Program-made: the position numbers and the translations under genes
From: a virus
IMG/VR virus record: IMGVR_UViG_3300035698_014711
Span: 9,297 to 73,296 of that record
Direction: 5' to 3' (one strand)
DNA length: 64,000 bases
Notes under the pieces: generated by a model
What the model was told of the DNA's origin: nothing
What the model saw: only the letters and a program-made list of their open reading frames with translations
The model's database searches: none
Shown here: piece after piece, positions 24,824 to 43,913 of the stretch
How the letters are laid out: the number at the start of each line of letters is the position of its first letter
Position numbering within the stretch: the first letter of the stretch is position 1

Positions 24824-24834
24824 AACTTTTCCTA

Positions 24835-25488
24835 TTATGTTTTTGGTCGCTTGACCAAGGCATCCTTTGACGGACAATTATTCCCTGGCTTGTAAGAGCT
24901 CATGAAGTTTACCCGTGCTTCATCTCCACCATTTTCAATCCAGATACCCTCTGTTTTTCCACCCCAGGCCTGATACGTTGGTTTTGCTTCATAGATAAAG
25001 GCATCACCATCACCGTCTACTGCCAAATATTGGAACTTAGGATCAATTTGGCTCCAGTCAATAGAAGGCTTTACAACTGGCTTTGTCACGAGACGATAGA
25101 CTCGGTTGGGGAGCAATTTAAAGACAGAGCCTTGCTTCCAGATTCCATCACCACCTATACGGTGCCCCGCATATGTCTTTACTACTTCAGTCCATGCACC
25201 AAGTTTCGTATAGACTTCAATTGGTCCTGCAGATTCAGCAAAGGCATCCTGCATCTCTTTTGACAATAGCCCGTAAGCAGTTGTGTTCTCAACAAGCTGC
25301 TTAGTGCATCGCGGGACAAGTTCAAAATAGCCCGCGGTGCTGCTCCACTGATTGATAACCTCAATTGCGCCGGCATATGGTACGTCTAGAACTACGTACT
25401 CAGTACCGACAATACCGAAGCGGCTGGGATCATGTGACTCTACAGTCCTGATAACCGTATCACCTACATTAAAATTATGCTTATTCAT
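24835..25488 (-). CDS. Hypothetical protein
   Basis: C-terminal KPSIDWSQI..YLAVDGDG..KP module common in phages. Confidence 0.55.
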   Translation of the reverse strand: MNKHNFNVGDTVIRTVESHDPSRFGIVGTEYVVLDVPYAGAIEVINQWSSTAGYFELVPRCTKQLVENTTAYGLLSKEMQDAFAESAGPIEVYTKLGAWTEVVKTYAGHRIGGDGIWKQGSVFKLLPNRVYRLVTKPVVKPSIDWSQIDPKFQYLAVDGDGDAFIYEAKPTYQAWGGKTEGIWIENGGDEARVNFMSSYKPGNNCPSKDALVKRPKT

Positions 25489-26026: not shown

Positions 26027-26098
26027 TCTGTTTCACTCCTTGTTGAGACCATACTATACTAAAATGGGCACAAAGTAAACACTTCATGCCCATTCTTT

Positions 26099-26575: not shown

Positions 26576-26804
26576 TCTTTTCTCCTAAGCTAAATAGCTT
26601 AAGCGTTGATGTCATTCTCATAGTAGTTCATTTTGTTTCCTTATCTGTAAATAACTAAATGTTACCTTTAACCCAATCAATCTTTTGATGCCAACCGATC
26701 TTTTGGGCTTCTGTATAATCATTATTCCAATCGCCGGCGTTGACGCGCAGTGCTAACTTTTTAGCTAAGTTTTTAGTATGATCAGAGAATTTCATAGTTG
26801 CTCC

Positions 26805-26878
26805 TGGATACCCGGGCTGGACTCGAACCAGCATTAACAGATTCAGAGCCTGCTTTCCTGCCATTAGAAGACCGGGTA
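26805..26878 (-). tRNA. tRNA-Gln (CTG)
   Basis: Full cloverleaf, GGTTCGAGTCC, CCA. Confidence 0.9.
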
Positions 26879-26881
26879 ATG

Positions 26882-27124
26882 TTATGCTTCAATATCAGTA
26901 TTACCTGAACGTAGAAACTCCATTCTTTCTATAGTTTCTTCTTGTGTCATACAATAAAAGCCTTCCAGAACTACACCTGTGGGTAATACAAAGTCTGTAG
27001 CTTCTAATGAAGCAACCGTTGCTTCGCATTGCTCCATACTTACTTGAGGGTGAGGCAATACCTGAGGGTGAAAAGATGCTTGTCCGTTAATGAAGAAGAT
27101 AGTAACTAAGAATAAAGTTTTCAT
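26882..27124 (-). CDS. Hypothetical protein
   Basis: 80-aa ORF between tRNAs. Confidence 0.5.
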   Translation of the reverse strand: MKTLFLVTIFFINGQASFHPQVLPHPQVSMEQCEATVASLEATDFVLPTGVVLEGFYCMTQEETIERMEFLRSGNTDIEA

Positions 27125-27139
27125 TTAAGTTTCCTTTTT

Positions 27140-27231
27140 TGGCAGAAGCAGGGAGAATCGAACTCCATACGCCGAGAGACGCACGATAAGATTAGCAATC
27201 CCTCCTAGGAACCATCCTAGTTCTTACTTCC
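27140..27231 (-). tRNA. tRNA-Ser (GCT)
   Basis: TTGCTAA loop, long variable arm, G73-CCA. Confidence 0.8.
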
Positions 27232-27234
27232 ATT

Positions 27235-27310
27235 TGGAGTTAGTGCCCGGACTCGAACCGGGGCCTCAAGGATTTGCAATCCTGCGCATTAACCGCTTTG
27301 CTACACCAAC
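27235..27310 (-). tRNA. tRNA-Cys (GCA)
   Basis: Canonical cloverleaf, U73-CCA. Confidence 0.92.
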
Positions 27311-27331
27311 ATATTTCTTAAGTATTTATAA

Positions 27332-27406
27332 TGGTGCTTCCAGCAAGAATCGAACTTGCGGCTGACCCTTACCAAAGGTCTGTTTTACCATTGAAACTAT
27401 GGAAGC
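27332..27406 (-). tRNA. tRNA-Thr (GGT)
   Basis: Canonical cloverleaf. Confidence 0.92.
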
Positions 27407-27409
27407 GTA

Positions 27410-27497
27410 TGGAGGAGAGACAGGGAATCGAACCCTGGAGACACTCGCATGCCTTACTGATTTCCAACCAGCTGCCTTACCGCTCGGCCACCTCTCC
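27410..27497 (-). tRNA. tRNA-Ser (GGA)
   Basis: Class II cloverleaf. Confidence 0.88.
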
Positions 27498-27501
27498 GTA
27501 T

Positions 27502-27629
27502 TGGCCCTTGCTGCGGGAATCGAACCCTAGTAAATAACTGCTTCATGTAGAGCTCGAGTTAACATGAAACATCTATCTACAACTTCCATCCGCTTTCACA
27601 CGGCTACTCTACCATTGAGCTAAACAAGG
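27502..27629 (-). ncRNA. 128-nt tRNA-like RNA with very long variable hairpin
   Basis: CCTTGTT/AGCAAGG acceptor, canonical D arm, GGTTCGATTCC, CCA; about 55-nt insertion. Confidence 0.65.
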
Positions 27630-27708
27630 ATATTAAGTTAAGTTACAGGTCGAGCCGACAAAGTCATATTACTACCTTTCACGAGTGAGCTGATAGCCCG
27701 TAACTTAT

Positions 27709-27782
27709 TGGTGGACCGGGTGGGGATTGAACCCACGTCCTGGGATTAAGAGTCCCGTGCTATACCACTCAGCTACCGGTCC
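27709..27782 (-). tRNA. tRNA-Lys (CTT)
   Basis: Canonical cloverleaf. Confidence 0.92.
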
Positions 27783-27892
27783 GTATTCTTATGCACCGTC
27801 ATCATCACGAAGATCATCTTCATCATCTGTCTGGATTGTGCCATCTTCATCATAAAACCAAAAATCATCCATCATCATTCCATTCTATAAGT

Positions 27893-27984
27893 TGGTAGAA
27901 GTGCCAGGAGTTGAACCTGGTCGAGAACGGTAATCTGCCGCTGAAAGACTTATAAGATCTCCCTGTGTACCAACACCCACTTCC
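27893..27984 (-). tRNA. tRNA with TAT (Ile) anticodon and long variable arm
   Basis: GAGAT-CTTATAA-GTCTT; class II body; A73-CCA. Confidence 0.75.
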
Positions 27985-27990
27985 GTTATT

Positions 27991-28077
27991 TGGTATAAGC
28001 GTGAAGGTATTGAACCTTGGAATACCGCTTTACTAGCTCGCAAATATTCCAGCAGACCACACTGCCATACGCCCTCA
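27991..28077 (-). ncRNA. Atypical tRNA-like gene (anticodon unresolved)
   Basis: D-like GCAG/CTGC, T-like AAGGTTCAATACCTT, CCA; extended GGAATA/TATTCC arm. Confidence 0.45.
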
Positions 28078-28081
28078 GTTA

Positions 28082-28351
28082 TTACATTTTATGTGATCTC
28101 TCACATTGTTCTGTAATTGCAGCATCAGACAAATCGAGATTAGGACGTGTCAGACCCTCATAGCAAATCAGGTCCTGTTTAAACCCAAAGTCATTTTCTG
28201 AGTTAACATACATTTGGATGAACCGTCCAGCACCATTAGGATAGCTCAATAGAAACCTTGCAGAAAGTATACCTAAGGCAATCTCCTGTGAGATAAACTT
28301 ACCGGTGAAGTGTCCTCGAAGACAGTTCCCTAGGGTATATGACTTTTCCAT
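28082..28351 (-). CDS. Hypothetical protein
   Basis: ORF in operon. Confidence 0.45.
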   Translation of the reverse strand: MEKSYTLGNCLRGHFTGKFISQEIALGILSARFLLSYPNGAGRFIQMYVNSENDFGFKQDLICYEGLTRPNLDLSDAAITEQCERSHKM

Positions 28352-28352
28352 A

Positions 28353-28559
28353 TCAAGTAGTCTCTACTGTCTCCATGACAGCCTGCAAAAGTTTGTCATA
28401 ATCACCTGACATTGCTTTAGTCTCAAACTCTGCAATATCATCTGCAGAACAACCACCGCGGCGCATTGCTTTCGCGGTGCGTCCGATGACAGAGAAAGCA
28501 TTACCGTCTTCGCCTACAAGACACACGATAACATTTGGAAATTTAACAGTCATGATCAT
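28353..28559 (-). CDS. Conserved small phage protein
   Basis: LVGEDGNAFSVIG..AMSGDYDKLL; early promoter at 28587-28615. Confidence 0.7.
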   Translation of the reverse strand: MIMTVKFPNVIVCLVGEDGNAFSVIGRTAKAMRRGGCSADDIAEFETKAMSGDYDKLLQAVMETVETT

Positions 28560-28616
28560 ATCCTCATTGTGTTTTGTTAAGACTAAACTAACATACAACA
28601 GGGCCAATGTAAACCA

Positions 28617-29276
28617 TTATTTTGATTTTTCTTTACGGAAGCTTTTCACATAGTCAAAGCCTGCTTTTTGGATCTTATCTTTATCAGCCAGAGGTTTGAT
28701 GTCAGGATTATTTGCAATGATACCCGAGACATATTGAAAGATCTCTTGGTGACAGGAGAATGCATCTAGGATAGAAGGAAGCCCTAAGGAGACAAGCCCA
28801 TCGCAGTTGATAGTATGGATCCATTTACCTTTCTCACGTTTAGCAAAAGAGACTGAGGTCACAATCCTATTGTCAATCAAAAACTTCTGGTAGGTTTCTC
28901 TATTAATTCCAAGAAATTCATCGATAGCAGGAATGATTTGCTTTCTCTTGTAGCGTGAGAGAATCTTTGTTAGCTTCTTATCACGAGTATAATGAAAGCC
29001 ATGGTGTGTTTCAACAAAGGGATAGCACTTAGTAGCTACTGTCACATACCCAAACCGGATATGAAAGGTATGACTACCGCACCAGAGACCTTGGTCTTTT
29101 TTGTCAAAGGTGTATGAAAGATTGGGGACATAACCGGGCCTACCAAAGCCGACACTCGGTAGAGCAAATGGGAGCTTAGCATTATCTACTTCAGTATTTG
29201 TTCTTTTAAACACATAAGCTTTATCAATACCATAGCCACATCCATCATAGTAATCGTGGCCTCGAATAATAAGCAT
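28617..29276 (-). CDS. Conserved phage hypothetical protein
   Basis: MLIIRGHDYYD..DKDKIQKAGFD..SFRK. Confidence 0.65.
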   Translation of the reverse strand: MLIIRGHDYYDGCGYGIDKAYVFKRTNTEVDNAKLPFALPSVGFGRPGYVPNLSYTFDKKDQGLWCGSHTFHIRFGYVTVATKCYPFVETHHGFHYTRDKKLTKILSRYKRKQIIPAIDEFLGINRETYQKFLIDNRIVTSVSFAKREKGKWIHTINCDGLVSLGLPSILDAFSCHQEIFQYVSGIIANNPDIKPLADKDKIQKAGFDYVKSFRKEKSK

Positions 29277-29488
29277 ATCACTTCTCCATTATAAAGAGCA
29301 TATACTGGCAAACATCTCATATTCTTCTATTATCAATTCTATAGTTTTGTGTGTATCTCTTGATTGTCTGTAAGCTCTATGTAAATGGACCCATTCAACA
29401 GGAAAATTAGATTCATAGAGTGCCCAATTCAAAAGATCATTGGGAAGATTTTCTCTTATAAGCAATTCATCCATAATACACCTGTAAT

Positions 29489-29560
29489 TGGAGCGGACAG
29501 AGGGAATCTAACCCTCTCCTTAAGTTTGGAAAACTATTTGGCTAACATAGCCCTGCCCGC
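29489..29560 (-). tRNA. tRNA-Gly (TCC)
   Basis: GCGGGCA/TGTCCGC acceptor, TTTCCAA loop, U73-CCA; short D arm. Confidence 0.8.
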
Positions 29561-29563
29561 ATA

Positions 29564-29616
29564 ACCGTGGAGTGTTGAGTTTTTATGCAATAAAATTAAG
29601 GAACACTCTTTACGGT
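29564..29616 (-). ncRNA. Bulged-stem RNA unit A (GTTCCTTA motif)
   Basis: ACCGT-AAA-GAGTGTT-CCTTA..AACACTC-C-ACGGT; late promoter at 29624-29631. Confidence 0.7.
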
Positions 29617-29634
29617 AGAATAGTATTTATAAGA

Positions 29635-29862
29635 TTAACATCGCATTTTTGGATCAGAATGAAAAGGACTCATTCCAGTTTTACCTGCATGAGCTTCATT
29701 AAGCTTTTCTTGTTGATCAGCTGGATAGCTTGGATCAATTTCATGAAGAAAAACCATATTCAAGTGTCTCTTGATTAGATCCACTTGCTGAGAGTTAATA
29801 TTAACAGGCTCGGCTACTTCAAAGAAGCCCTGTAGCCAATAGCAAAATTCTGTAGATTTCAT
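29635..29862 (-). CDS. Conserved small phage protein
   Basis: MKSTEFCYWLQGFFE..IKRHLNMVF; start set at 29862 after AAGGA. Confidence 0.75.
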   Translation of the reverse strand: MKSTEFCYWLQGFFEVAEPVNINSQQVDLIKRHLNMVFLHEIDPSYPADQQEKLNEAHAGKTGMSPFHSDPKMRC

Positions 29863-29877
29863 GTCAGTATCCTTAAA

Positions 29878-30067
29878 TGGCGAGTTGTAATTTGGTGGCA
29901 CGCAAGGGCCTTGCTTGATGTAAGGAACAACTTGTGCCGATGTGAATATGCCGGAGTGTAAGGTTTCTAAAATGAATGAATAAGGAACACTCTTTGGCAA
30001 TATGTTAATGATGAGCTGTTAAAAATCGGAGGTTGGTCCGACCACGAGTAAGGAACAGCTTTTATCA
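29878..30067 (-). ncRNA. Three tandem bulged-stem RNA units B, C, D (GTTCCTTA motif)
   Basis: Units at 29878-29939, 29949-29999 and 30009-30067 with compensatory stem changes. Confidence 0.7.
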
Positions 30068-30073
30068 AATTTC

Positions 30074-31819
30074 TTAAAGAGACAACAAAGCCTCCAATTT
30101 ATCATAGCTGAATGATGAATAAGTCAGATCGTAATCATACTCAACACCAGGTACAGCTACTTTATCATAGCCTACGCCAATCAGGCCAAGAACTTCTTGA
30201 AGAGTAAAGACAGAGTTAAGACCTTTTTCAATCAGAGGGTTCTTTCCGTTTGATGAAACATGCCTATTTCCCGTCCGTCCTGTAAACACAGTAAAGGTTG
30301 TGCCCTTGACAAAGCCAAGGATAACTTCCTTAGACTGCATAGTGAATTCTTCCTGAATGATTGGGTTCTGAATCCACTCCCCTTTGGTCTTTTGACCTAC
30401 AATCAATGAAGCCTTACAGCCAATTTCACCAGAGTAAATATTAACATTAAGACCATATTCAGAACCAGAAGAGGAGGTCATGAATTCCATAGCATCAGGG
30501 GTAGGTGTAACAACATCACCAGAATAGATAATCTGTCCGTCAGTATATCCACCAGTGCCGCCCCAGCCTATACGATTTCCATCTTTATCAATAGAAGATA
30601 AGTCAAGATCTCGAGCTCCACCGTCTTTATGCCAATAGATACCAGAAGAGATAGATTCTGCAGCAACGTGGATCTTTGTGCCAAAAGGTAGATTACCCAG
30701 AGTCTGCTTCTGAGAGATTGGAAGACCATAGTCAACATTAGTATCCAGAAGGATTTTCTTATCTTTCAGGTATTCTAGATCAACTTTAATAGAAGAAATA
30801 ATAGTATTCTGAAGCTGACCTAATACTTTCAGATCATAGACTTTAACATCTGCAGTCTTTACAAAGAGCTTGCCATTCCGAATATTGAAAACATCTACAT
30901 CTAGCTGCTTGCATTTATACTCAACCAGGTTAAGAAATTTGAACTTATCTCGCAGAGAAGCTTTAGATAATAGATCAAGGGGATCTGTAATCTTACCTGC
31001 AATAGCATCAGCAATGAAGGTCTTTGTCCATGACTGCTTGAGCGGAATATGAACTGTTTTGCTCAACCTAGAGATATAGTTAATCTGAGTTTTATTGCTC
31101 TTATGCTTGACAGACATAATTACTGCTTTGTGTCGGTTAAAGACTTGAGCAAGAGCAAGAGCGTTACGGCTATAAAAGCTTGAAGGAATAAGAGCGGCTG
31201 ACATTTTGCAAGCCTGGAGAACTTCTTTTGATTTAATCAGAAGAGTATCACCTGTTGCTCGATAGATAATATAGCGGACTGCATCATCACCACAATCAAA
31301 AGTGTCATTGTTAGCATCAAAGAGCAATACTCTAAGCTCGTTATTCTCAACAAGATTGACATTGAACTGAATGAGATACCTATCAATGATAGCTTTCAGA
31401 CCAAGGACATCCTTGACCGGAGCATTGCTATACATGAGCTTCCGAACTTTATCACCAAGTTCTTCTTCAGTAATGCCGATAACAAACTTTAGAGTAAAAG
31501 TAGGCTCTTGAGTCTCATTTATGATAGTAAAAGAACCACCAAGACCGTCAAGACCCATGCCATAAACTTCGAGATAATGGATGAACTGTGTGGTCAGAAG
31601 GTAAGGAAGTGAAGCCTTTTGTCGTTCTTCCACTGTAAAAAGAGTACGAACTGGGAGCCCACGATCATTATGCTTGAAAAACAATTGTTGCTCAGGAGAT
31701 GGGTTAAAGTTTAAAACATAACCATGCGCAATCATAGTAGTAACAAATGCATCTCTTGAAACCTGATCAGCATCAATTACAGTAGCATTAAATAGGTCTA
31801 GAACTTCTTTCATAATCAT
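30074..31819 (-). CDS. 581-aa protein with helical middle region and C-terminal TerD-like domain
   Basis: QFIHYLEVYG..FNRHK..GNLPFGT..GIYW..DLDLS..IGW..YSGDVV..AMEF. Confidence 0.65.
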   Translation of the reverse strand: MIMKEVLDLFNATVIDADQVSRDAFVTTMIAHGYVLNFNPSPEQQLFFKHNDRGLPVRTLFTVEERQKASLPYLLTTQFIHYLEVYGMGLDGLGGSFTIINETQEPTFTLKFVIGITEEELGDKVRKLMYSNAPVKDVLGLKAIIDRYLIQFNVNLVENNELRVLLFDANNDTFDCGDDAVRYIIYRATGDTLLIKSKEVLQACKMSAALIPSSFYSRNALALAQVFNRHKAVIMSVKHKSNKTQINYISRLSKTVHIPLKQSWTKTFIADAIAGKITDPLDLLSKASLRDKFKFLNLVEYKCKQLDVDVFNIRNGKLFVKTADVKVYDLKVLGQLQNTIISSIKVDLEYLKDKKILLDTNVDYGLPISQKQTLGNLPFGTKIHVAAESISSGIYWHKDGGARDLDLSSIDKDGNRIGWGGTGGYTDGQIIYSGDVVTPTPDAMEFMTSSSGSEYGLNVNIYSGEIGCKASLIVGQKTKGEWIQNPIIQEEFTMQSKEVILGFVKGTTFTVFTGRTGNRHVSSNGKNPLIEKGLNSVFTLQEVLGLIGVGYDKVAVPGVEYDYDLTYSSFSYDKLEALLSL

Positions 31820-31832
31820 TCCTCTTTCAAAT

Positions 31833-31906
31833 TGGATGTGCGAGCTGGGATCGAACCAGCATTAACGGGGTCAAAGGCCGCTTTCCTGCCATTAGAAGAT
31901 CGCACA
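31833..31906 (-). tRNA. tRNA-Gln (TTG)
   Basis: Canonical; paralog of the 26805 tRNA. Confidence 0.9.
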
Positions 31907-31910
31907 ATAA

Positions 31911-32045
31911 TCAATACTTAGTTTTCAGATCAATCTTATCCAGACGTCTCTGAGCTTTCTTTGTTTTTCCGTGAGCTCCACTCTTCCGAAAATGGGCATG
32001 GGCTGCAAACGGATTTCTGTTCTTTGGGCTTGGGCTCTTTTTCAT
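31911..32045 (-). CDS. 44-aa basic peptide (not in track)
   Basis: MKKSPSPKNRNPFAAHAHFRKSGAHGKTKKAQRRLDKIDLKTKY; RBS and early promoter at 32067-32097. Confidence 0.65.
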   Translation of the reverse strand: MKKSPSPKNRNPFAAHAHFRKSGAHGKTKKAQRRLDKIDLKTKY

Positions 32046-32310
32046 AATCATTTCCTCTGAATATTAACTATAACATAAAGAGGGCATGATGTAAACCTAT
32101 CTTTTTGTTTCTCGTGCCTTACATGCTTCATAAATAATCTGATTTCTGTCAGCGTCAGGCAATTTGCTACTTGTTACAAAACAAGAGACTCCCATGAAAC
32201 CTTTGATAGTAATTGGAGTTATCTCACGCATCAAGTTATCGAGACTTGTACGGAGTAAGAGCTTCTCAACATCAAATGATTTAGCTGTCATGTTCTATCC
32301 ATTGTTAAAT

Positions 32311-32387
32311 TGGTACCCAAGGTGAGAATTGAACTCACAATATTCAATCTTGTAAGAATCGATGGTCCACCAGGACGCGGCTCGGGC
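32311..32387 (-). tRNA. tRNA-Val (TAC)
   Basis: CTTACAA loop, T arm, CCA. Confidence 0.75.
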
Positions 32388-32396
32388 ATATAGTAT

Positions 32397-32480
32397 TGGT
32401 GCTGGCCATAGGATTCGAACCTATGACGTTGTTATAACGGATTACAAAACCGTTCCTTTCGGCCTCTCAGGCAGACCAGC
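32397..32480 (-). tRNA. tRNA-Thr (TGT), enlarged variable loop
   Basis: TTTGTAA loop, class II-like D arm. Confidence 0.8.
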
Positions 32481-32484
32481 ATTA

Positions 32485-32763
32485 TTATTCAGGCAGTACC
32501 ACGCAGGACAAACCTACAGGACCGGCGTCACCAAAGGCCATCACACAGAAAACATTGTCTGCAGTGGCAGCAGGGAATTCATAGACACGAACATCCCTGC
32601 CAAGTGCCTCAACTCGATAGCCTGTGCTTTCCTGTGTAGGAAGATCACCAACATCAGTTGAGAACCAACCCGCTCCTGCGGCACCAGACATTGAACTAAC
32701 AGTTATTAGAACAACACCAGCGGCAATAGCTAACAAACCTGATGGCTTAACAAAATTCAACAT
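32485..32763 (-). CDS. Small secreted/membrane protein
   Basis: Signal-like N-terminus; VRVYEF..C..C. Confidence 0.6.
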   Translation of the reverse strand: MLNFVKPSGLLAIAAGVVLITVSSMSGAAGAGWFSTDVGDLPTQESTGYRVEALGRDVRVYEFPAATADNVFCVMAFGDAGPVGLSCVVLPE

Positions 32764-32788
32764 AGATTCACTCCGTTTAATTTAGATA

Positions 32789-32875
32789 TGGAGGACAGGG
32801 TGGGATTCGAACCCACGATGGATGTTACTCAACGAATTAAAAGCCCGCTCCTTCGGCCGCTCAGGTCACCTGTCC
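32789..32875 (-). tRNA. tRNA-Lys (TTT) with long variable arm
   Basis: GCGGG-CTTTTAA-TTCGT, U73-CCA. Confidence 0.75.
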
Positions 32876-33318
32876 ATATGATGTTGGCAATGTTCCGCAG
32901 AACTTCTTAGCTACTCTCCGCTCGTAGCACCATTAGTCTAGTTAATTTCTTTTTCTTTTTCTTGTAGCATTGCTTTTAAAATAGCAATCAGGAAAGCCTG
33001 GCCTGCACTTTCAGATTTACCTTCGGCATAAGTAGTGCCGGGTCCGCCGGAGAAAGCATTGGTGAGCAGATCTAGGTTTGCTCACCTTATAGTTTAGAAA
33101 GTATATTTTACTTCAAGACCTGCCTGTGTGTTGTCTGAAGCTGTATCAAAGGACCGTCGGAGGTAGGAATGACTGTCACTTTATTTATGACCGCCACATC
33201 AAGTCCGAGTTCAACATACCCGCCTGCTCTTGCAAACTGATTGCTTGCATTGAAGCTATAACCTGCTTCAGAGAAGGCAGTTACTTCACCAGAGAAGGCA
33301 TAAGCATGGTTAGGCAAT

Positions 33319-33390
33319 TGGTAGTGTCACCGGGTATCGAACCCAGCCTATTCAGATATGAACCAAACGTCTGAACCTATCAGTGACACC
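33319..33390 (-). tRNA. Atypical tRNA-Met (CAT), possible 8/4 fold
   Basis: GGTGTCAC/GTGACACT acceptor, TTCATAT loop. Confidence 0.6.
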
Positions 33391-33399
33391 ATATTAACT

Positions 33400-33470
33400 T
33401 GGAACCCCCGGGGAGAATCGAACTCCCCGTCATCGGCTTCGAAAGCCTAGGCCGTCCCAGCGGCGGAGGT
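33400..33470 (-). tRNA. tRNA-Arg (TCG), short D arm
   Basis: GGC-TTTCGAA-GCC, T arm, CCA. Confidence 0.7.
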
Positions 33471-33476
33471 ATAAAT

Positions 33477-33550
33477 TGGCACAGATCTGAGGAATCGAAC
33501 CCCTTGTCAGATGGTTTGGAAGCATCCGTCTACCCAGTAGACATTAGACT
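33477..33550 (-). tRNA. tRNA-Trp (CCA), damaged 5' acceptor strand
   Basis: TTCCAAA loop, G73-CCA, poor acceptor pairing. Confidence 0.55.
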
Positions 33551-33600
33551 AGACCTATATTGTCTATAATATTTGTAGTTTTGTAGATGGTATAGAACAT
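33544..33600 (-). pseudogene. Seg-like GIY-YIG homing endonuclease 5' remnant
   Basis: MFYTIYKTTNIIDN then stop; preceded by a late promoter inside an inverted repeat. Confidence 0.65.
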
Positions 33601-33656
33601 GGTTTGTACTCATAGTTTTATTGTCACTACTATTTATACAAACCATGCTCTCTAAG

Positions 33657-33728
33657 TGGACCGCCGGGGAATCGAACCCCGTGACAGCAATCTTGCAAGG
33701 ATCGCCCGCTACCCCATAGACGCAGCCC
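33657..33728 (-). tRNA. tRNA-Ala (TGC), no encoded CCA
   Basis: G3-U70, CTTGCAA loop. Confidence 0.8.
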
Positions 33729-33736
33729 ATATTCTT

Positions 33737-33813
33737 TGGTACCCAAGGAGGGACTCGAACCCTCAAGACCTTCCGTTTGGGGAAGTATGCTATTCCTCTT
33801 ACGTTGCCTGGGC
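33737..33813 (-). tRNA. tRNA-Leu-like (CAA?) with 6-nt anticodon loop
   Basis: CTTCC-CCAAAC-GGAAG; 3' 28 nt identical to Leu-TAG at 35164. Confidence 0.55.
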
Positions 33814-33958
33814 ATATTATTGCTACCTACTCCATAGCTTTCCGATACTCTCTCCTTACGAGTATGACCTCGGAACACGGTGCTCGCGCAGACCTAAGAA
33901 GTTACCTTCTTCTCATATTTAAAGACCCTCAGGCTGAAACAGGGTCGTAGAAAACTTC

Positions 33959-34033
33959 TGGTGTTGTGCCGGGGAATCGAACCACCGTTGGACCGACCTA
34001 TACGGCCGCGCATTAACATTATGCTAGCACAAC
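33959..34033 (-). tRNA. tRNA with aberrant anticodon loop (GTA/TAT unresolved)
   Basis: Good acceptor and D arms; CGGCC-GTATA-GGTCG. Confidence 0.55.
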
Positions 34034-34037
34034 ATAT

Positions 34038-34127
34038 TGGCGGATGGAGAGGGAGTCGAACCCTCACGGCGCTTAAAGCCCTAACTGCTTTCAAAACAGC
34101 GGCCACCCCCAATTGGCTTGCCCATCC
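34038..34127 (-). tRNA. tRNA-Ser (TGA)
   Basis: Class II cloverleaf, G73-CCA. Confidence 0.9.
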
Positions 34128-34138
34128 GTATCTTATAA

Positions 34139-34540
34139 TCAATCGAAGTATGTTGGATCATCATGAGGATTACGCTTTTTTGGAGCTCTAGTTGTCTTCT
34201 TCTTTTTCCTCAGTTCATCTGATATTTCATAGTCTATACCAATACCATCATATTCGTCTTCTTCAGCAAAGTTATATGAAATTGCAATGACACCTCTAAT
34301 ACTAGGAGTCTCAAAAGATTCGTAATCGCCGTTTTTCTTATATGTCCACTTGGAATCACTTTTAAGAGTGGCAATTAATTTCTTAAGCTTCTTACGGTCG
34401 GCTTCATATACATCCGTGAAATTCTTGTCTGCTTTTTCAGTTGTCCCGCCAGTTATTTTCACGGCCATTTTAATAACAGTAGCTAAATCTTCTGTATTAG
34501 CTTCATTAAGAGAATGCATCAATTCTTTAAAGGTTTTCAT
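34139..34540 (-). CDS. Putative internal head protein
   Basis: MKTFKELMHSLNE/A capsid-targeting-like N-terminus; late promoter at 34567-34574. Confidence 0.6.
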   Translation of the reverse strand: MKTFKELMHSLNEANTEDLATVIKMAVKITGGTTEKADKNFTDVYEADRKKLKKLIATLKSDSKWTYKKNGDYESFETPSIRGVIAISYNFAEEDEYDGIGIDYEISDELRKKKKTTRAPKKRNPHDDPTYFD

Positions 34541-34594
34541 ACGATATCCTATTCTATGATTTAAAGTATTTATACATTCATACATTCAAAGAAT

Positions 34595-34675
34595 TGGTAC
34601 TAGGTGGTAGGTGGTAGAATTGAACTACGCATCAACATCCTTCACAGGGATGAGACCTCACCAGAGGAACCTAGC
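34595..34675 (-). tRNA. tRNA-His (GTG) with 7-nt tandem duplication
   Basis: CATCC-CTGTGAA-GGATG; CTACCAC twice at the T/acceptor junction. Confidence 0.6.
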
Positions 34676-34827
34676 ATGATAAACTTGTGGGTCTTATACA
34701 TTCGGTTAACCCTTCAGCTGATTGAGTTTCAACACCAGCGAGTAAAGCGCGTTGCGAACATCACGCGGCATGGTAGAAATTGGACCGATACAATGTCCTA
34801 AGCGTCTTTCGATAATCTGTCGGGCAG

Positions 34828-35085
34828 TCATTCGCAGGCCCCCATAAGCATTTCATCTGATGGGCCATTAATGTAATTTTGTGTTTCCAGTAAATCACCG
34901 GCAGTACCAAAGTAAAGCATTAATGAATTGTCATGGTATTCATCAAATGCTGGGCCACCTACGAGGTTAGGGCCACTTTCAGCATTACCATTGTCATGAT
35001 AATCTTCATTATAGGCAGTGTGCGTGAAGCCTGCTTCAATCAAGAAAGCGTGGGACGTGCTAAACGGTGTTCTATTATCAGACAT
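34828..35085 (-). CDS. Acidic hypothetical protein
   Basis: RBS and early promoter at 35117-35147. Confidence 0.55.
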   Translation of the reverse strand: MSDNRTPFSTSHAFLIEAGFTHTAYNEDYHDNGNAESGPNLVGGPAFDEYHDNSLMLYFGTAGDLLETQNYINGPSDEMLMGACE

Positions 35086-35163
35086 TTGGTTAATCCTTTG
35101 GTTTGGTTATAAGTTAACCATAACATAACCAGAGACATATGTAAACAACTAAATGATATATTT

Positions 35164-35241
35164 TGGTACCCAAGGAGGGACTCGAACCCTCAGACCTCAC
35201 CTTCTAAGGGTGATATGCTATTCCACTTACATCGCAGGGGC
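35164..35241 (-). tRNA. tRNA-Leu (TAG), short variable loop
   Basis: TCACC-CTTAGAA-GGTGA. Confidence 0.8.
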
Positions 35242-35251
35242 ATGATAAACT

Positions 35252-35327
35252 TGGTACCTGAGGAGGGAATTGAACTCTCTCATAAACACTAATCAGGTGC
35301 TCGTCTTTCCATTAGACAGTCTCAGGC
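35252..35327 (-). tRNA. tRNA-Ile (GAT)
   Basis: CTGATTA loop, CCA. Confidence 0.8.
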
Positions 35328-35331
35328 ATAT

Positions 35332-35406
35332 TGGTAGCGGGGTCAGGAATTTAACCTGAAGGAAGACGTGGTAATGAGCCAGTCTTGAGAAACATCTCTC
35401 CCCGCA
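35332..35406 (-). tRNA. tRNA-Met (CAT), initiator-like 1:72 mismatch
   Basis: TGCGGGG/CCCCGCT, CTCATTA loop. Confidence 0.65.
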
Positions 35407-35436
35407 CAAACTTTATAAGGTTCTTCCAGGGTGCCA

Positions 35437-35494
35437 GCCCTATGTAAATCATACCATTGATTATATTAGTAGTTTTGTAAATTGTGTAGTGCAA
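35437..35494 (-). pseudogene. Second Seg-like GIY-YIG remnant
   Basis: (TTG)HYTIYKTTNIINGMIYIG, then frame runs into a tRNA gene. Confidence 0.7.
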
Positions 35495-35550
35495 GAGAAG
35501 TACCTATAGTTTTACCATATAGTACTATCTATACTTCTCTTGCACTCTAT

Positions 35551-35623
35551 TAAAGCATACGGGATTCGAACCCGTGTTCACCGGGTGAAAACCGGCGCGT
35601 CCTTTCCAATAGACGAATGCTTC
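35551..35623 (-). tRNA. tRNA-Glu (TTC), no encoded CCA
   Basis: GCCGG-TTTTCAC-CCGGT, canonical T arm. Confidence 0.82.
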
Positions 35624-35676
35624 ATAATGATGAAATTTATTATAACATAATCTAATGCCTATGTAAACAAAAGATT

Positions 35677-35771
35677 TGGTAGGCGCGGTGGGCATCGAAC
35701 CCACGGTGTGATCATTAATCTGTAGCAGATTTTAAGTCTGCCGCGTTTCAGCCAAACTTCGCCACGCGCCC
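35677..35771 (-). tRNA. tRNA-Leu (TAA)
   Basis: Class II cloverleaf. Confidence 0.9.
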
Positions 35772-35779
35772 GTTGTAAT

Positions 35780-35853
35780 TGGTGCTCCCGGAAGGAATCG
35801 AACCTTCGTGCGTCGGCTTAGAAGACCTTGCTTGGTAAACCACCAGCGGGAGC
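35780..35853 (-). tRNA. tRNA-Arg (TCT)
   Basis: CTTCTAA loop, T arm, CCA. Confidence 0.8.
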
Positions 35854-35860
35854 AATTAGT

Positions 35861-35936
35861 TGGTGCTGCCCCACAGAATTGAACTGTGGTTTTCGGCTCT
35901 TCAGACCGACGTGAGCACCAGCCTCACCAGAGCAGC
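35861..35936 (-). tRNA. tRNA-Phe (GAA)
   Basis: Canonical cloverleaf. Confidence 0.88.
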
Positions 35937-35942
35937 ATATTT

Positions 35943-36018
35943 TGGTCACTGTGGTAGGTCTCGAACCTACGATCTCCTAGTTCCAAACCAGGCGACTTAC
36001 CTACTAGCCTACACAGAG
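35943..36018 (-). tRNA. tRNA-Pro (TGG)
   Basis: Canonical cloverleaf. Confidence 0.9.
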
Positions 36019-36025
36019 ATAATCT

Positions 36026-36110
36026 TGGTGGGAGAGTGAGAAGTTGAATCTCTCGCTTTTACACTCAGGGTTTACAGTCCGTCTGTGGATACCCTCCACT
36101 GAACCCTCCC
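36026..36110 (-). tRNA. tRNA-Tyr (GTA)
   Basis: CTGTAAA loop, long variable arm. Confidence 0.75.
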
Positions 36111-36124
36111 AGGTTCTTAGTTAT

Positions 36125-36198
36125 TGGCGGCCCTGTGGGTAATCGAAACCCAATCTTCTCGCAGACAACGAGTAATAATACCTTTATACGACAGGGCC
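36125..36198 (-). tRNA. tRNA-Asp (GTC)
   Basis: CTCG-TTGTCTG-CGAG, G73-CCA. Confidence 0.85.
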
Positions 36199-36250
36199 AA
36201 ATGTCAGCCGGGAAATTCTTTATTGCCGCCGGATCGGTCAAATTGCAATT

Positions 36251-36321
36251 TGGAGCGGGTAGAGGGAATCGAACCCTCTCCTTGAGTGTGGCACACTTGT
36301 TGGCTCCATAGCCTTACCCGC
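36251..36321 (-). tRNA. tRNA-Gly (GCC)
   Basis: Paralog of Gly-TCC at 29489. Confidence 0.8.
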
Positions 36322-36336
36322 ATTTAAACTACATTG

Positions 36337-36422
36337 CTCTCCACCTTGGAATCGAACCAAGCATCGGATCTCTCACGTCAACTGATTAACAGTCAGCTCG
36401 CCCACCTTGAGCGCTGTAGAGA
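36337..36422 (-). tRNA. tRNA-Asn (GTT) with long variable arm, no CCA, extended acceptor helix
   Basis: GCTGA-CTGTTAA-TCAGT; flanks pair for about 20 bp. Confidence 0.7.
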
Positions 36423-36605
36423 GCAATATAGTTTATTGTATTACCATTAGTCTTCCACGGGCATTACAGCCGGTGTTCCTGTCCTCTCAACGGATATCCT
36501 CACGGGCCGAAGTAGAGTTAGAAGGGTCACTCCCGAGGTGGTTAGTCCTCATTATGACGAGCTGATGTGGAACTTATTGTTCCGACCCTGTGTTTCCTTA
36601 ATTAT

Positions 36606-36636
36606 TGTATAACATAACCTTTTGTCACTGTAAACC
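36606..36636 (-). promoter_or_regulatory. Early promoter at the head of the tRNA array
   Basis: GTTTACA..TATGTTATAC. Confidence 0.75.
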
Positions 36637-36644: not shown

Positions 36645-36679
36645 CAAAAACCTCAGTCTTTTTAGAAGACTGAGGTTGC
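36645..36679 (-). terminator. Intrinsic terminator (candidate attenuator)
   Basis: AACCTCAGTCTT-ctaaa-AAGACTGAGGTT-TTT. Confidence 0.8.
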
Positions 36680-36704
36680 AAAATTACTTTATGTAAATTT
36701 GATC

Positions 36705-36791
36705 TCAGCAGCAGTATACCTCAATATCTCTCCCAAAGGAGAGGCGTGTCGGTAAGCCTGAATAATTTGATTTTTGCCAATGGGCTGTCAT
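36705..36791 (-). CDS. 28-aa leader peptide containing all 20 amino acids
   Basis: MTAHWQKSNYSGLPTRLSFGRDIEVYCC*; CAGGA RBS; late promoter upstream, terminator downstream. Confidence 0.75.
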   Translation of the reverse strand: MTAHWQKSNYSGLPTRLSFGRDIEVYCC

Positions 36792-36836
36792 AATAGTTCC
36801 TGTTGGGAGGAATAATTCCCTGCCCTTTTATATACT

Positions 36837-36844
36837 TATTTATA
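36837..36844 (-). promoter_or_regulatory. Late promoter TATAAATA in the loop of a 12-bp inverted repeat
   Basis: ATTCCCTGCTCT..TATAAATA..AGGGCAGGGAAT. Confidence 0.75.
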
Positions 36845-36888
36845 CAACTAGAGCAGGGAATGTGTCTTTTTCTTATCTTTTTTGCAAC

Positions 36889-42568: not shown

Positions 42569-42870
42569 TATTCTACCTTTTCATAAGTTGCTTCAAAAAT
42601 ATCAGGCTTGCAAGGATATAGTTCACCCTGAACTCCCTGAATAATATAGTCACCCCAAGTTACTCGATGAGTTCCTTCGAGAGTAACAATATCCAATTCA
42701 TCTTCGCCCTTTGAGCTAGGATAATCAGAAGGCTCCAGAGACCCAGATGTGCCATGTTCAGTTTGCCATGCAGCGTGCATCCACTGCGGCCAATCTGCAT
42801 TAGATTTTCTTCGTTCCATTGTCATCTGAAAAGCTTCAATGACAATAGGCTTTTTACGGTACTTGTTCAT
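42568..42870 (-). CDS. Conserved phage protein
   Basis: KYRKKPIVIEA..TLEG..GDYIIQGVQGELYPCKPDIFEATYE. Confidence 0.8.
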   Translation of the reverse strand: MNKYRKKPIVIEAFQMTMERRKSNADWPQWMHAAWQTEHGTSGSLEPSDYPSSKGEDELDIVTLEGTHRVTWGDYIIQGVQGELYPCKPDIFEATYEKVE

Positions 42871-43913
42871 CAGTCACCACCTTTTAGGAGAAATTTATTT
42901 GAGATTACCTTGAAGCTTGTGTCAGTGAAGTTATTCTTCCACACAAGGCCTTCCCTGTATTTATGGGTCAGAGAGGCCCCATCTGCATATTCAAGTGCAT
43001 TTTCTACGGAAGTTGGGTAGTAACCTTTACTATCTAGAATTGGAACTGTAACAAGTCCATTCTGGGAGATAAATGTCCAACGGGCATCAGGAAGTAGATA
43101 AGCTTGGTTCTGAATATCAAAGATATCAAAGATAAAGAACTCACATTCAGATAGTTTCTCACGGTTACCTTGAACTCCAGGGCCCATAATTTCACCTTGG
43201 AAAGCAAACCCTAGTTCTACTTTATCGCCATACTTTAGAGCTTGTTTGACATAGACATTTTCTTTGGTTGATTCTTCAATACGGATTTCCATGTTTCGGC
43301 CCGCAACATGCAGACCTTCATCATCACGCCAGATTGTGCAAGAAGTTCCATCGAGCTTAAGAGAGATTTCCCAGCTATCATGTGTATAATCTGAGAGTTT
43401 TTCAAAACAGTTCTGAATTCGTTCCTGATCTGTTTTAGGAATAAAGCTTGGAAATGTTCCCTTTGCGAGTCCTTGCATTTCAGCAGGGATAGCCTTTTCC
43501 CATTTCTGAATATTAAGAGCTTCGGTAACATCATCACCAGACTCGACAAAAACCATCATTCCACTTCCAGCCCCGTCTGTGTGATGGAAACCGACAACAA
43601 ATCTTCGGTCGCGGACTCTCTCAACGATGTTCAGAATGAGACCTTGGCTGACCTGACCTCGAAGCTTAATTGTCCGAAGACGTTCACCAGCAACCCCATT
43701 ATATTCTCGAGGTGTATGCTCTCTTGAAAGAAAGGGAGCCAAATCATGAGGTACCCAACTATCAATCTCAAGATAAACTACTAGATCACCAATTGTAAAT
43801 TCGCCCTTTTTGACAACTACTTTCCAGCCGTCTACTGTAGCCACTTCAATTGCATCTGCGCCTTCAATTGGATCAAGACCAATGATAGTTCTGACTGTTG
43901 CTAGTTGTCTCAT
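42870..43913 (-). CDS. ATP-dependent RNA ligase (Rnl2/DRB0094 family) with N-terminal OB domain
   Basis: FPSFIPKTDQERIQN..KLDGTS..QGEIMG..FDI..REGLVWK..SFKVISN. Confidence 0.92.
   Translation of the reverse strand: MRQLATVRTIIGLDPIEGADAIEVATVDGWKVVVKKGEFTIGDLVVYLEIDSWVPHDLAPFLSREHTPREYNGVAGERLRTIKLRGQVSQGLILNIVERVRDRRFVVGFHHTDGAGSGMMVFVESGDDVTEALNIQKWEKAIPAEMQGLAKGTFPSFIPKTDQERIQNCFEKLSDYTHDSWEISLKLDGTSCTIWRDDEGLHVAGRNMEIRIEESTKENVYVKQALKYGDKVELGFAFQGEIMGPGVQGNREKLSECEFFIFDIFDIQNQAYLLPDARWTFISQNGLVTVPILDSKGYYPTSVENALEYADGASLTHKYREGLVWKNNFTDTSFKVISNKFLLKGGD

What the first reader, a model, noticed from the sequence alone, without database searches (positions are those of the whole stretch)
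36645..36861. Leader peptide with all 20 amino acids plus attenuator at the head of the tRNA array: candidate general tRNA-depletion sensor
Seen (minus strand, in order): late promoter TATAAATA (36837-44); RBS CAGGA; ORF 36791-36705, MTAHWQKSNYSGLPTRLSFGRDIEVYCC*; a 12-bp terminator hairpin with U tract (36645-79); then about 34 tRNA genes covering all 20 amino acids. The 28 codons encode every amino acid and use 25 distinct codons, and repeated residues mostly switch codon (Leu TTA/CTC, Arg CGC/AGA, Gly GGC/GGG). Under uniform usage about 4.8 residues (20 x 0.95^28) would be expected missing. The ORF 3' end TTGAGGT is complementary to the terminator 5' arm ACCTCAG, giving an antiterminator. 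Established: trp/his-type attenuators enrich ONE amino acid. Inference: this is the inverse design. A stall from loss of almost any tRNA (e.g. host anticodon nuclease) would leave GAGGT free and allow late read-through into the phage tRNAs, while full translation masks it and terminates. Caveats: D, I, E, V and C occur only in the last codons, where a stalled ribosome would cover the antiterminator; a separate early promoter (36606-36) lies downstream of the terminator.
Basis: partly seen in the sequence, partly recalled or inferred. Interest (0 to 1): 0.92.

Follow-up and report, generated by a model that had tools for sequence, protein, structure and literature searches.

The report
All-amino-acid leader before phage tRNAs
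A 28-codon mini-gene that uses all 20 amino acids, followed by a transcription stop signal, sits in front of an uncultured phage's tRNA genes and probably lets late transcription run on into those genes when ribosomes decode slowly.

Summary
The sequence features are real. On the minus strand lie a T4-type late promoter (36844-36837), an AGGA ribosome site, a 28-codon ORF with all 20 amino acids (36791-36705), a 12-bp intrinsic terminator (36677-36649), a sigma70-like promoter and then the tRNA module. I found about 30 tRNA genes for 19 amino acids, not 34 for 20.

An all-20 ORF of 28 codons or fewer is expected 0.003-0.006 times in this 73-kb contig. No relative of this phage could be fetched, so the locus has no conservation or covariation evidence of its own. 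Its alternative pairing is short (6-7 bp, marginal against shuffles).

The scan had noted such leaders before on other DNA, so I tested that lead myself. In 76 phage tRNA-array heads from IMG/VR, an ORF plus terminator lay on the sense strand in 9 and on the antisense strand in 1. Five of the nine ORFs had 18-20 amino acids in 28-47 codons. One family of 53 loci shares the window's layout. It keeps 18-20 amino acids in 28 of 30 distinct peptides and has a covarying antiterminator inside the ORF.

The window is therefore most likely a new, sequence-unrelated and very compact member of an unpublished class of pan-amino-acid leader attenuators (confidence 0.6). The closest published parallel in how it works is the whiB7 uORF.

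The parts
36837..36844 (-). T4-type late promoter motif TATAAATA, preceded by TG
   Evidence: The motif is enriched (17 against 4.4 expected) and lies mostly before gene starts on this strand.
36798..36801 (-). Shine-Dalgarno AGGA, 6 nt before the ATG
   Evidence: the same motif and spacing as before many long genes. It is predicted about 50% unpaired in local context and 10-27% unpaired in the full leader.
36705..36791 (-). Leader ORF: 28 codons plus TGA, all 20 amino acids
36728..36743 (-). Hairpin inside the ORF (CUCUCC-UUUG-GGAGAG, codons 17-22). A role as a pause hairpin is inferred only.
   Evidence: Present in the MFE and centroid folds.
36718..36724 (-).
   Evidence: Seven pairs with 36676-36670, -8.8 kcal/mol when forced. 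It is not the pairing the ensemble prefers.
36704..36709 (-). GCUGAG across the stop codon, the alternative partner of the terminator's 5' arm that folding prefers
   Evidence: Pair probabilities of 0.8-1.0 with 36674-36669 when the 3' arm is absent.
36680..36700 (-). Small A/U hairpin between the stop codon and the terminator, with CAUAAAG (36693-36687) in its loop
36640..36677 (-). Intrinsic terminator: 12-bp stem (36677-36649), loop CUAAA, U-rich tail
   Evidence: It is one of about four strong minus-strand terminator-like hairpins in the 64 kb; another (26092-26065) closes the tRNA module.
36601..36628 (-). Sigma70-like promoter GTGACA-16-AATAAT just downstream of the terminator
   Evidence: consensus match only.
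36423..36600 (-). Spacer of about 175 nt before the first tRNA; no known RNA family and no significant fold
   Evidence: (z-score -0.19).
34603..36422 (-). First block of the tRNA module: 11 tRNA genes (Asn to His). It has no TATAAATA of its own.
   Evidence: Late transcription of this block would have to come through the terminator (inference).

Best explanation
The element is a leader-peptide transcription attenuator at the head of the phage's tRNA module.

Proposed mechanism (inferred, none of it shown for this locus):
1. Late in infection the TATAAATA promoter starts a transcript of about 190 nt, and ribosomes load at AGGA and translate the 28-codon ORF.
2. If translation runs to the stop codon, the ribosome covers the ORF's last 20 nt or so. 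That stretch holds both segments that can pair with the terminator's 5' arm. The 12-bp terminator then forms and the transcript ends at about 36645.
3. If the ribosome lags at an earlier codon because any of many aminoacyl-tRNAs is scarce, one of those segments pairs with the 5' arm, the terminator fails, and RNA polymerase continues into the first 11 tRNA genes.
4. Early expression of the tRNAs comes from sigma70-like promoters downstream of the terminator, so the leader gates only the late contribution.
5. Because the ORF carries every amino acid once or twice, it reports general decoding capacity, not the supply of one amino acid.

Shown here: the parts and their order, the rarity of the composition, and the recurrence of the same design at other phage tRNA arrays.

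Inferred: translation of the ORF, conditional read-through, and what is sensed.
For: Anatomy and composition at this locus:
1. Promoter, SD, ORF, 27-nt gap, terminator and tRNAs lie in attenuator order.
2. The terminator lies downstream of a late promoter that has nothing else to drive except the ORF. The first 11 tRNA genes have no other TATAAATA.
3. All 20 amino acids in 28 codons has P of about 7e-5, and 0.003-0.006 such ORFs are expected in the contig.

Independent recurrence, tested here on a sample not chosen for leaders (80 loci with three tandem tRNA T-loops):
4. Of 76 array heads, the best sense-strand short ORF had 19 or more amino acids in 9, against 3 on the antisense strand. It had all 20 in 3 against 0, and P<=0.05 in 7 against 2.
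5. An ATG ORF followed within 60 nt by a terminator occurred in 9 heads on the sense strand and 1 on the antisense strand.
6. Five of those nine ORFs (L136, L137, L147, L151, L193) have 18-20 amino acids in 28-47 codons.

The L147 family:
7. Of 55 loci, 53 could be analysed, and all 53 have an ORF of 32-37 codons, a 23-32 nt gap and a terminator. In 51 of the 53, TATAAATA lies 18-22 nt before the ATG.
8. Of 30 distinct peptides, 28 have 18 or more amino acids and 21 have 19 or more. The null for 33 codons is 15.65 +/- 1.44, with P(>=19) = 0.018.
9. Subfamily peptides share only 5-10 of about 33 residues, and ORF lengths differ by whole codons.
10. A helix between ORF codons 23-26 or so and the terminator's 5' arm is paired in 80.3% of cells, against 49-65% when slid. 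Five of 11 pairs show compensatory changes. The covariation score is 0.352 against 0.186 +/- 0.016, with 0 of 500 shuffles as high.

Comparison of the window with that family:
11. The window's gain from alternative pairing (-6.3 to -6.7 kcal/mol) is larger than the family's median of -3.3 (range -13.2 to -1.4).
12. The family also has a promoter-like TTGACA downstream of its terminator, so the window's downstream promoter fits the design.

Context:
13. RtcB, an RNA ligase and NAD salvage genes lie in the same window.
Against: 1. No relative of this phage could be examined, so there is no conservation or covariation for this locus.
2. The alternative pairing is only 6-7 bp. Shuffled upstream sequence did as well in 24 of 400 and 38 of 400 trials and 9 of 300 trials.
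3. The first 21 codons hold 15 amino acids (P(>=15) = 0.10). D, I, E, V and C first appear at codons 22-27, where a stalled ribosome would cover the candidate antiterminator. The proposed mechanism therefore does not itself explain the completeness. The L147 family has the same feature: by my reading's peptides, two amino acids occur only at or after its antiterminator segment.
4. Codon usage matches random synonymous choice and is poorer than gene-like draws (index 0.54 against 0.687 +/- 0.07; 1.4% of draws as low).
5. The SD is partly sequestered in predicted folds.
6. The tRNA module has three sigma70-like promoters in its first block and four more TATAAATA further on, so read-through is not needed for tRNA expression as such.
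7. There is no sequence or model similarity to the L147 family. Local alignments were no better than shuffles beyond TATAAATAA. The family's covariance model scores the window's leader at 7.7 bits, E = 4.1, fifth of 13 noise-level hits.
8. Five NAMPT-carrying giant phages with 26-47 tRNA matches each showed no such leader at their array heads, so the design is not universal.
Confidence: 0.6

Rival explanations
1. An ordinary operon junction. The terminator simply ends transcripts of the NAD-salvage operon (NAMPT, NMNAT-Nudix) and of the late promoter, and insulates the tRNA module, which has its own promoters. The 28-codon ORF is a chance reading frame or an inconsequential one, and its composition is coincidence.
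For: - Strong terminators bracket the tRNA module at both ends (36675 and 26092).
- A sigma70-like promoter follows at once, and the module has more promoters of both kinds.
- Codon usage looks random.
- The alternative pairing is marginal.
- All-20 28-residue windows occur at the rate expected somewhere in the contig's six frames (2.0 expected, 2 seen).
- A scan of very many windows will meet chance all-20 ORFs. My own estimate from the 0.003-0.006 per contig is that this would happen often.
Against: - A consensus late promoter with TG and an SD at gene-like spacing point at this ORF.
- A terminator placed downstream of that promoter would make the promoter pointless unless the ORF or read-through matters.
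- The expected number of such ORFs in the contig is 0.003-0.006.
- The same layout with diverse peptides recurs at other phage tRNA arrays, far more often on the sense strand than the antisense strand.
Confidence: 0.22
2. A genuine small late gene. The unit makes a 28-residue peptide with a job of its own, and the terminator is simply the end of that gene. There is no regulatory link to the tRNAs.
For: It is a complete monocistronic unit of promoter, SD, ORF and terminator.
Against: - The peptide has no family match in PHROGs or Pfam.
- Its codon usage is unlike that of the phage's genes.
- A peptide with every amino acid and no repeated pattern does not suggest a fold or a membrane segment (my reading).
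- In the L147 family the peptides drift almost freely (5-10 of about 33 residues shared between subfamilies) while the RNA pairing and the diversity are kept. That speaks for the act of translation, not the product.
Confidence: 0.13

Closest known systems
Leader-peptide attenuators of amino-acid operons (trpL, hisL, pheL, thrL, ilv leaders)
   Same: A short translated ORF upstream of an intrinsic terminator. Ribosome position on the ORF's 3' part decides between terminator and alternative pairing. (Recalled textbook knowledge; pheL seen only as a search listing, PMC3082878.)
   Different: Those leaders carry runs of one or a few regulatory codons and control biosynthetic genes. This one has every amino acid once or twice, no runs, and precedes tRNA genes of a phage.
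whiB7 uORF attenuator of mycobacteria
   Same: A uORF plus a Rho-independent terminator and antiterminator. Efficient translation terminates and stalled translation reads through. It responds to lack of many amino acids, tRNAs and synthetases according to the uORF's composition, and the M. smegmatis uORF has every amino acid except Cys (PMC10274678; abstract and passages read).
   Different: It controls a transcription factor in a bacterium. Its uORF is alanine-rich (25-40% Ala per the paper), whereas this one is maximally even. There is no sequence relation.
toiL uORF of E. coli topAI-yjhQ
   Same: A multipurpose uORF that senses ribosome stalling at different positions (PMC12121999, abstract read).
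   Different: It acts through RBS occlusion and Rho-dependent termination, and it was defined with antibiotics rather than tRNA supply.
Inducible tRNA array (trn operon) of Anabaena sp. PCC 7120
   Same: A horizontally spread array of 23-26 tRNA genes that is silent by default and induced when translation is impaired (PMC8421152, abstract read; PMC10272220, search listing only).
   Different: According to the 2023 title and abstract start it is controlled by a protein repressor (TrcR), not by a leader peptide. It is cellular, not viral.
T-box riboswitches
   Same: A terminator/antiterminator switch that reports tRNA charging. (Recalled; not looked up here.)
   Different: They bind one specific uncharged tRNA directly, involve no translation, and control synthetase and amino-acid genes.
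L147 family of leaders before phage tRNA arrays
   Same: TATAAATA, a short ATG ORF beginning MT or MS, a 23-32 nt gap, a strong terminator with an A-rich loop, a promoter-like site and then tRNAs. The ORFs hold 18-20 amino acids.
   Different: There is no detectable sequence or covariance-model similarity. The window's ORF is shorter (28 against 32-37 codons), has an SD and a 45-nt 5' UTR (family: 18-22 nt and no evident SD), and has a much shorter alternative helix (6-7 against 10-14 bp).

Membership tests
Leader-peptide transcription attenuator (general class) | Short ORF with a translation start, on the same transcript and upstream of the regulated genes | tested here: met
   ATG at 36791 with AGGA 6 nt upstream, 45 nt after the late-promoter motif, and tRNA genes downstream.
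Leader-peptide transcription attenuator (general class) | Intrinsic terminator between the ORF and the regulated genes | tested here: met
   A 12-bp stem plus U tract at 36677-36640, 27 nt after the stop codon.
Leader-peptide transcription attenuator (general class) | Alternative (antiterminator) pairing that uses the ORF's 3' part and excludes the terminator | tested here: inconclusive
   Two candidates of 6-7 bp exist. The pairing gain is -6.3 to -6.7 kcal/mol against -2.7 to -3.5 in shuffles; 24 of 400, 38 of 400 and 9 of 300 shuffles did as well.
Leader-peptide transcription attenuator (general class) | Regulatory codons: enrichment of the sensed amino acid(s) | tested here: not met
   No residue occurs more than three times and there are no runs. 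The composition is maximally even instead. This is the point of difference, shared with the L147 family.
Leader-peptide transcription attenuator (general class) | Translation-dependent read-through | not testable with these tools
   No RNA data are available. It needs Term-seq, Ribo-seq or reporters.
Pan-amino-acid leaders before phage tRNA arrays (L147 family and look-alikes; unpublished) | Position and order: promoter, ORF of about 30 codons, about 25-nt gap, terminator, second promoter, tRNA array | tested here: met
   Window gap is 27-29 nt against 23-32 in 53 of 53 family loci, with the same order of parts.
Pan-amino-acid leaders before phage tRNA arrays (L147 family and look-alikes; unpublished) | Amino-acid diversity well above expectation | tested here: met
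   Window: 20 of 20 in 28 codons, P of about 7e-5. Family: 28 of 30 distinct peptides with 18 or more.
Pan-amino-acid leaders before phage tRNA arrays (L147 family and look-alikes; unpublished) | Homology in sequence or structure to the family | tested here: not met
   Local alignment is no better than shuffles. The covariance model R1 gives 7.7 bits, E = 4.1, rank 5 of 13 noise hits. The window works like this family but is not shown to be a member by descent.
Pan-amino-acid leaders before phage tRNA arrays (L147 family and look-alikes; unpublished) | Diversity and pairing conserved among relatives | not testable with these tools
   No relatives of the window's phage were found in the phage, IMG/VR, metagenome or genome collections.

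The most novel reading that the evidence does not exclude
The 28-codon ORF is a minimal 'one of each' test message. By reading every amino acid in about 85 nt, it lets a T4-type phage measure the cell's overall supply of charged tRNA late in infection. It opens transcription into the phage's own replacement tRNAs whenever any tRNA is depleted, for instance by a host anticodon nuclease.

Together with the sequence-unrelated L147 and L136/L137 leaders found here, this would be a widespread and so far unpublished class of phage regulatory element, one that arose more than once or has diverged beyond recognition.
Probability: 0.4. Interest if true: 0.85.

Novelty: new variant of a known kind. Interest (0 to 1): 0.68.

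Why it matters
Phage tRNA genes are now understood partly as a counter to tRNA-cleaving defences. I saw this only as search listings and abstract starts (PMC10264068, PMC11555353, PMC11464382). How phages regulate those genes is hardly known.

A leader that samples all amino acids would give phages a general gauge of decoding capacity wired directly to their spare tRNAs. The idea can be tested directly with reporter fusions.

The window adds a third lineage that is unrelated in sequence and the most compact example (28 codons, 20 amino acids). That argues the composition, not the peptide, is what selection keeps. If the ORF turns out to be chance, the locus is an ordinary promoter/terminator junction.

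Tried and rejected
Searches for relatives of this phage:
- DNA of the locus against the phage collection: no match.
- NAMPT by tblastn in the phage collection: best 56.7% identity.
- NAMPT in IMG/VR: at most 56-60%. In metagenome contigs: at most 60%. In GTDB genomes: at most 60%.
- Tail protein: one phage record at 24% and none in IMG/VR.
- The 581-aa protein: none.
- A degenerate back-translation of the first 10 codons in IMG/VR: 0 hits.
- Earlier findings searched by sequence: none.

Sequencing runs:
- No RNA holder was listed.
- Laying four runs gave only three identical 151-nt contigs and two 31-nt pieces, with no variants and no cover of the ORF.

Family searches on the leader itself:
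- Rfam found no family for the leader or the spacer.
- PHROGs and Pfam found nothing for the peptide.
- No repeats of the region occur in the contig.

Other arrays examined:
- NAMPT-linked arrays: 7 heads (5 distinct) had no diverse ORF.
- SCTP-2 and XacN1 have no tRNA array near NAMPT.
- Five giant phages, 554 short ORFs: the lowest P was 0.006, for a 38-codon all-20 ORF in G001 with a TTG start and no SD or terminator. I rejected it as chance.

Readings I changed or withdrew:
- A translation-initiation 'opening cost' is withdrawn as evidence, because its window overlapped an upstream hairpin. One search replaces it and is neutral.
- Until my reading was 'ordinary junction, chance ORF'. The lead from earlier notes, and my own test of it, reversed that.
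Full report
**What is there**

The window is a 64-kb part of a 73.3-kb IMG/VR virus record rated 37% complete. Runs labelled salt lake metagenome hold it: 4 of the 14 listed hold half or more of the sampled words, and the best holder may be the source sample.

On the minus strand the parts lie in this order:
- NAMPT (38268-36889) and, upstream of it, an NMNAT-Nudix gene (39323-38298).
- TATAAATA at 36844-36837.
- AGGA at 36801-36798.
- A 28-codon ORF at 36791-36705.
- A 27-nt gap.
- A 12-bp hairpin with a U tract at 36677-36640.
- A sigma70-like promoter at 36628-36601.
- A spacer of about 175 nt.
- The tRNA module, which runs down to about 26800.

tRNA genes: 19 by ARAGORN at default settings, 28 at a relaxed threshold and 2 more in targeted scans. 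That makes about 30 genes for 19 amino acids. I found no tRNA-Tyr.

**Are the signals real?**

- TATAAATA occurs 17 times against 4.43 +/- 2.28 expected (0 of 100 shuffles reach 17). Sixteen copies are on the gene strand, many just before gene starts, and 8 of those 16 are preceded by TG, as this one is. The phage therefore uses T4-type late promoters.
- AGGA at 6-8 nt is the usual ribosome site of its long genes.
- The hairpin (-16.7 kcal/mol) is one of about four strong minus-strand terminator-like sites in the 64 kb. Another closes the tRNA module at 26092-26065.

**How rare is the composition?**

- P(all 20 in 28 codons) is 4.3e-4 with uniform usage and 5e-5 to 1e-4 with this genome's usage.
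- Among ORFs of 20-60 aa the next shortest with all 20 has 49 residues.
- Expected all-20 ORFs of 28 codons or fewer in the contig: 0.003-0.006.
- Against that, among 41,560 stop-free 28-residue six-frame windows 2.0 all-20 windows are expected and 2 are seen, both here.
- The first 21 codons hold an unremarkable 15 amino acids (P = 0.10). D, I, E, V and C come only at codons 22-27.
- Twenty-five distinct codons, and 5 of 8 repeated residues changing codon, are what chance gives. Codon usage looks like random synonymous choice.

**RNA alternatives**

- The full leader folds with the terminator intact (z-score -3.4).
- Without the 3' arm, the 5' arm pairs best with GCUGAG across the stop codon (36709-36704).
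- The gain from any such pairing is -6.3 to -6.7 kcal/mol against about -3 in shuffles. Shuffles did as well in 24 of 400, 38 of 400 and 9 of 300 trials.
- On its own this evidence is marginal.

**No relatives**

Every route to relatives of this phage failed. Laid contigs showed no variants. Up to this point I read the locus as an ordinary junction with a chance ORF.

**The lead and my test of it**

A word search of earlier notes showed that other agents of this scan had reported 'pan-amino-acid leader attenuators' before tRNA arrays of other uncultured phages. Those are unchecked AI notes, so I tested the claim on data of my own choosing.

They hold 91 arrays of 4 or more tRNAs, and 76 heads had enough upstream sequence.
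- The best sense-strand short ORF had 19 or more amino acids in 9 of 76 heads, against 3 of 76 on the antisense strand. It had all 20 in 3 against 0, and P<=0.05 in 7 against 2. Several of the nine are longer ORFs at ordinary P, and one looks like an endonuclease fragment.
- An ATG ORF followed within 60 nt by a terminator lay on the sense strand in 9 heads and on the antisense strand in 1.
- Five of the nine (L147, L151, L193, L136, L137) have 18-20 amino acids in 28-47 codons. The other four are ordinary (14 of 25, 18 of 44, 13 of 22, and 11-18 of 54-60).

*The L147 family.* L147, L151 and L193 have the window's order of parts, including TATAAATA and a promoter-like TTGACA after the terminator. 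A 22-position motif from their spacer drew 55 loci.
- 53 loci were analysable, and all 53 have the unit. In 51, TATAAATA lies 18-22 nt before the ATG.
- The 30 distinct peptides have 16 (1 peptide), 17 (1), 18 (7), 19 (17) or 20 (4) amino acids in 32-37 codons. The null for 33 codons is 15.65 +/- 1.44.
- Four subfamilies share only 5-10 residues, and their lengths differ by whole codons.
- On a 35-row alignment, the helix between ORF codons 23-26 or so and the terminator's 5' arm is paired in 80.3% of cells (49-65% when slid). Five of 11 pairs have changes on both sides, and no shuffle reaches its covariation score. The terminator itself is paired in 91.2%. Relatedness of the rows inflates such counts, but the slid controls keep relatedness.

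That family is therefore a well-supported leader-peptide attenuator with an unusually diverse leader.

**What this does to the window**

- The window shares the design, but not the sequence, with that family. Local alignment finds nothing beyond TATAAATAA, and the family's covariance model scores the window's leader at noise level (7.7 bits, E = 4.1, rank 5 of 13).
- Three of my earlier objections lose force. The family also has a promoter downstream of its terminator. By my reading's peptides, it also has amino acids that occur only at or after the antiterminator segment. Its 5'-arm pairing gain (median -3.3) is smaller than the window's.
- Given that such a class exists at array heads, an all-20 ORF of 28 codons in exactly that position is far better explained by membership of the class in function than by chance.
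- What remains open is everything specific to this locus: translation, conditional read-through, which helix competes, and whether codons 22-28 are sensed.
- The first 11 tRNA genes have no late motif of their own. So late transcription of them would have to pass the terminator. This is inference.

**Compared with what is known**

- Classic leaders (trpL and the like) sense one or a few amino acids.
- The whiB7 uORF already shows the general version. Read-through on stalled translation has a sensitivity set by uORF composition, and the M. smegmatis uORF lacks only Cys (PMC10274678, passages).
- toiL senses stalling at several positions (PMC12121999, abstract).
- A cellular tRNA array induced by translational stress is known in Anabaena (PMC8421152, abstract). 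By the listing of PMC10272220 it is under a protein repressor.
- My five literature searches found no paper describing a leader peptide before phage tRNA genes. The library lacks most subscription journals, and I opened no supplements.

**Verdict**

- Best reading: a pan-amino-acid leader-peptide attenuator that gates late read-through into the phage's tRNA module (0.6).
- Rivals: an ordinary junction with a chance ORF (0.22), and a small late gene with no regulatory role (0.13).
- It is a new variant of a known kind. The scan had found the design before on other DNA. This locus adds a sequence-unrelated and more compact instance in a different phage.

Noticed in passing
window 36423-36600 (-): A spacer of about 175 nt lies between the sigma70-like promoter and the first tRNA. 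It has no Rfam match and no fold better than shuffles, and ARAGORN at a very low threshold calls nothing credible there. The L147 family also has a spacer after its terminator, there with a conserved GGTGG...CCACC motif.
   Followed up: partly
window 36687-36693 (-): CATAAAG sits in the loop of a small hairpin between the stop codon and the terminator. All four subfamilies of the L147 family have CATAAAAGC, CATAAAGC or CATAAGC at the same relative place. The heptamer occurs 16 times in the window on both strands, so a chance hit in a 27-nt gap has odds of about 0.002. This was noticed post hoc.
   Followed up: partly
window 23384-24877 (-) and 42870-43913 (-): An RtcB-type tRNA-splicing ligase and an RNA ligase (PHROG E-values of 1e-86) flank the tRNA module. 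Together with NAMPT and NMNAT-Nudix, this gives the phage tRNA repair, tRNA replacement and NAD salvage all in one 20-kb stretch.
   Followed up: partly
window 27323-27330 (-): A TATAAATA lies 13 nt before tRNA-Cys, between two tRNA genes, so late promoters drive tRNAs directly elsewhere in the module. Further copies lie at 29631, 33638 and 34574.
   Followed up: partly
window 26065-26092 (both strands): A 12-bp hairpin with T tracts on both sides closes the far end of the tRNA module, so the module is bracketed by strong terminators.
   Followed up: no
window 26800-36422 (-): Many tRNAs score poorly: Rfam at gathering score and ARAGORN at default against 28-30 when relaxed. Several have unusual lengths, and no tRNA-Tyr was found.
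   Followed up: partly
L136:4703 and L137:5717 (array heads): This is a second, TATAAATA-less lineage of diverse leaders: 47 codons with 20 amino acids, and 28 codons with 18. Each is followed after 31-32 nt by a terminator and then a TTGACA promoter and tRNAs. Both peptides begin MTQ and share an LGF motif.
   Followed up: partly
L164, L172, L179, L192 (array heads): Four further sense-strand ORF-plus-terminator units lie before tRNA arrays, with ordinary amino-acid diversity (14 of 25, 18 of 44, 11-18 of 54-60, 13 of 22). They may be leaders of another kind or chance.
   Followed up: no
G001:C1:41048-41164 (-): A 38-codon all-20 ORF lies 64 nt before a tRNA-Cys inside a giant phage's array, but it has a TTG start, no SD and no terminator. 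I judged it chance (P = 0.006 among 126 ORFs).
   Followed up: yes
leader peptides of window, L147, L193, L136, L137, L171: Six of the short ORFs before arrays begin Met-Thr (ATGAC...). This may reflect a preference at the second codon or be chance. I did not test it.
   Followed up: no
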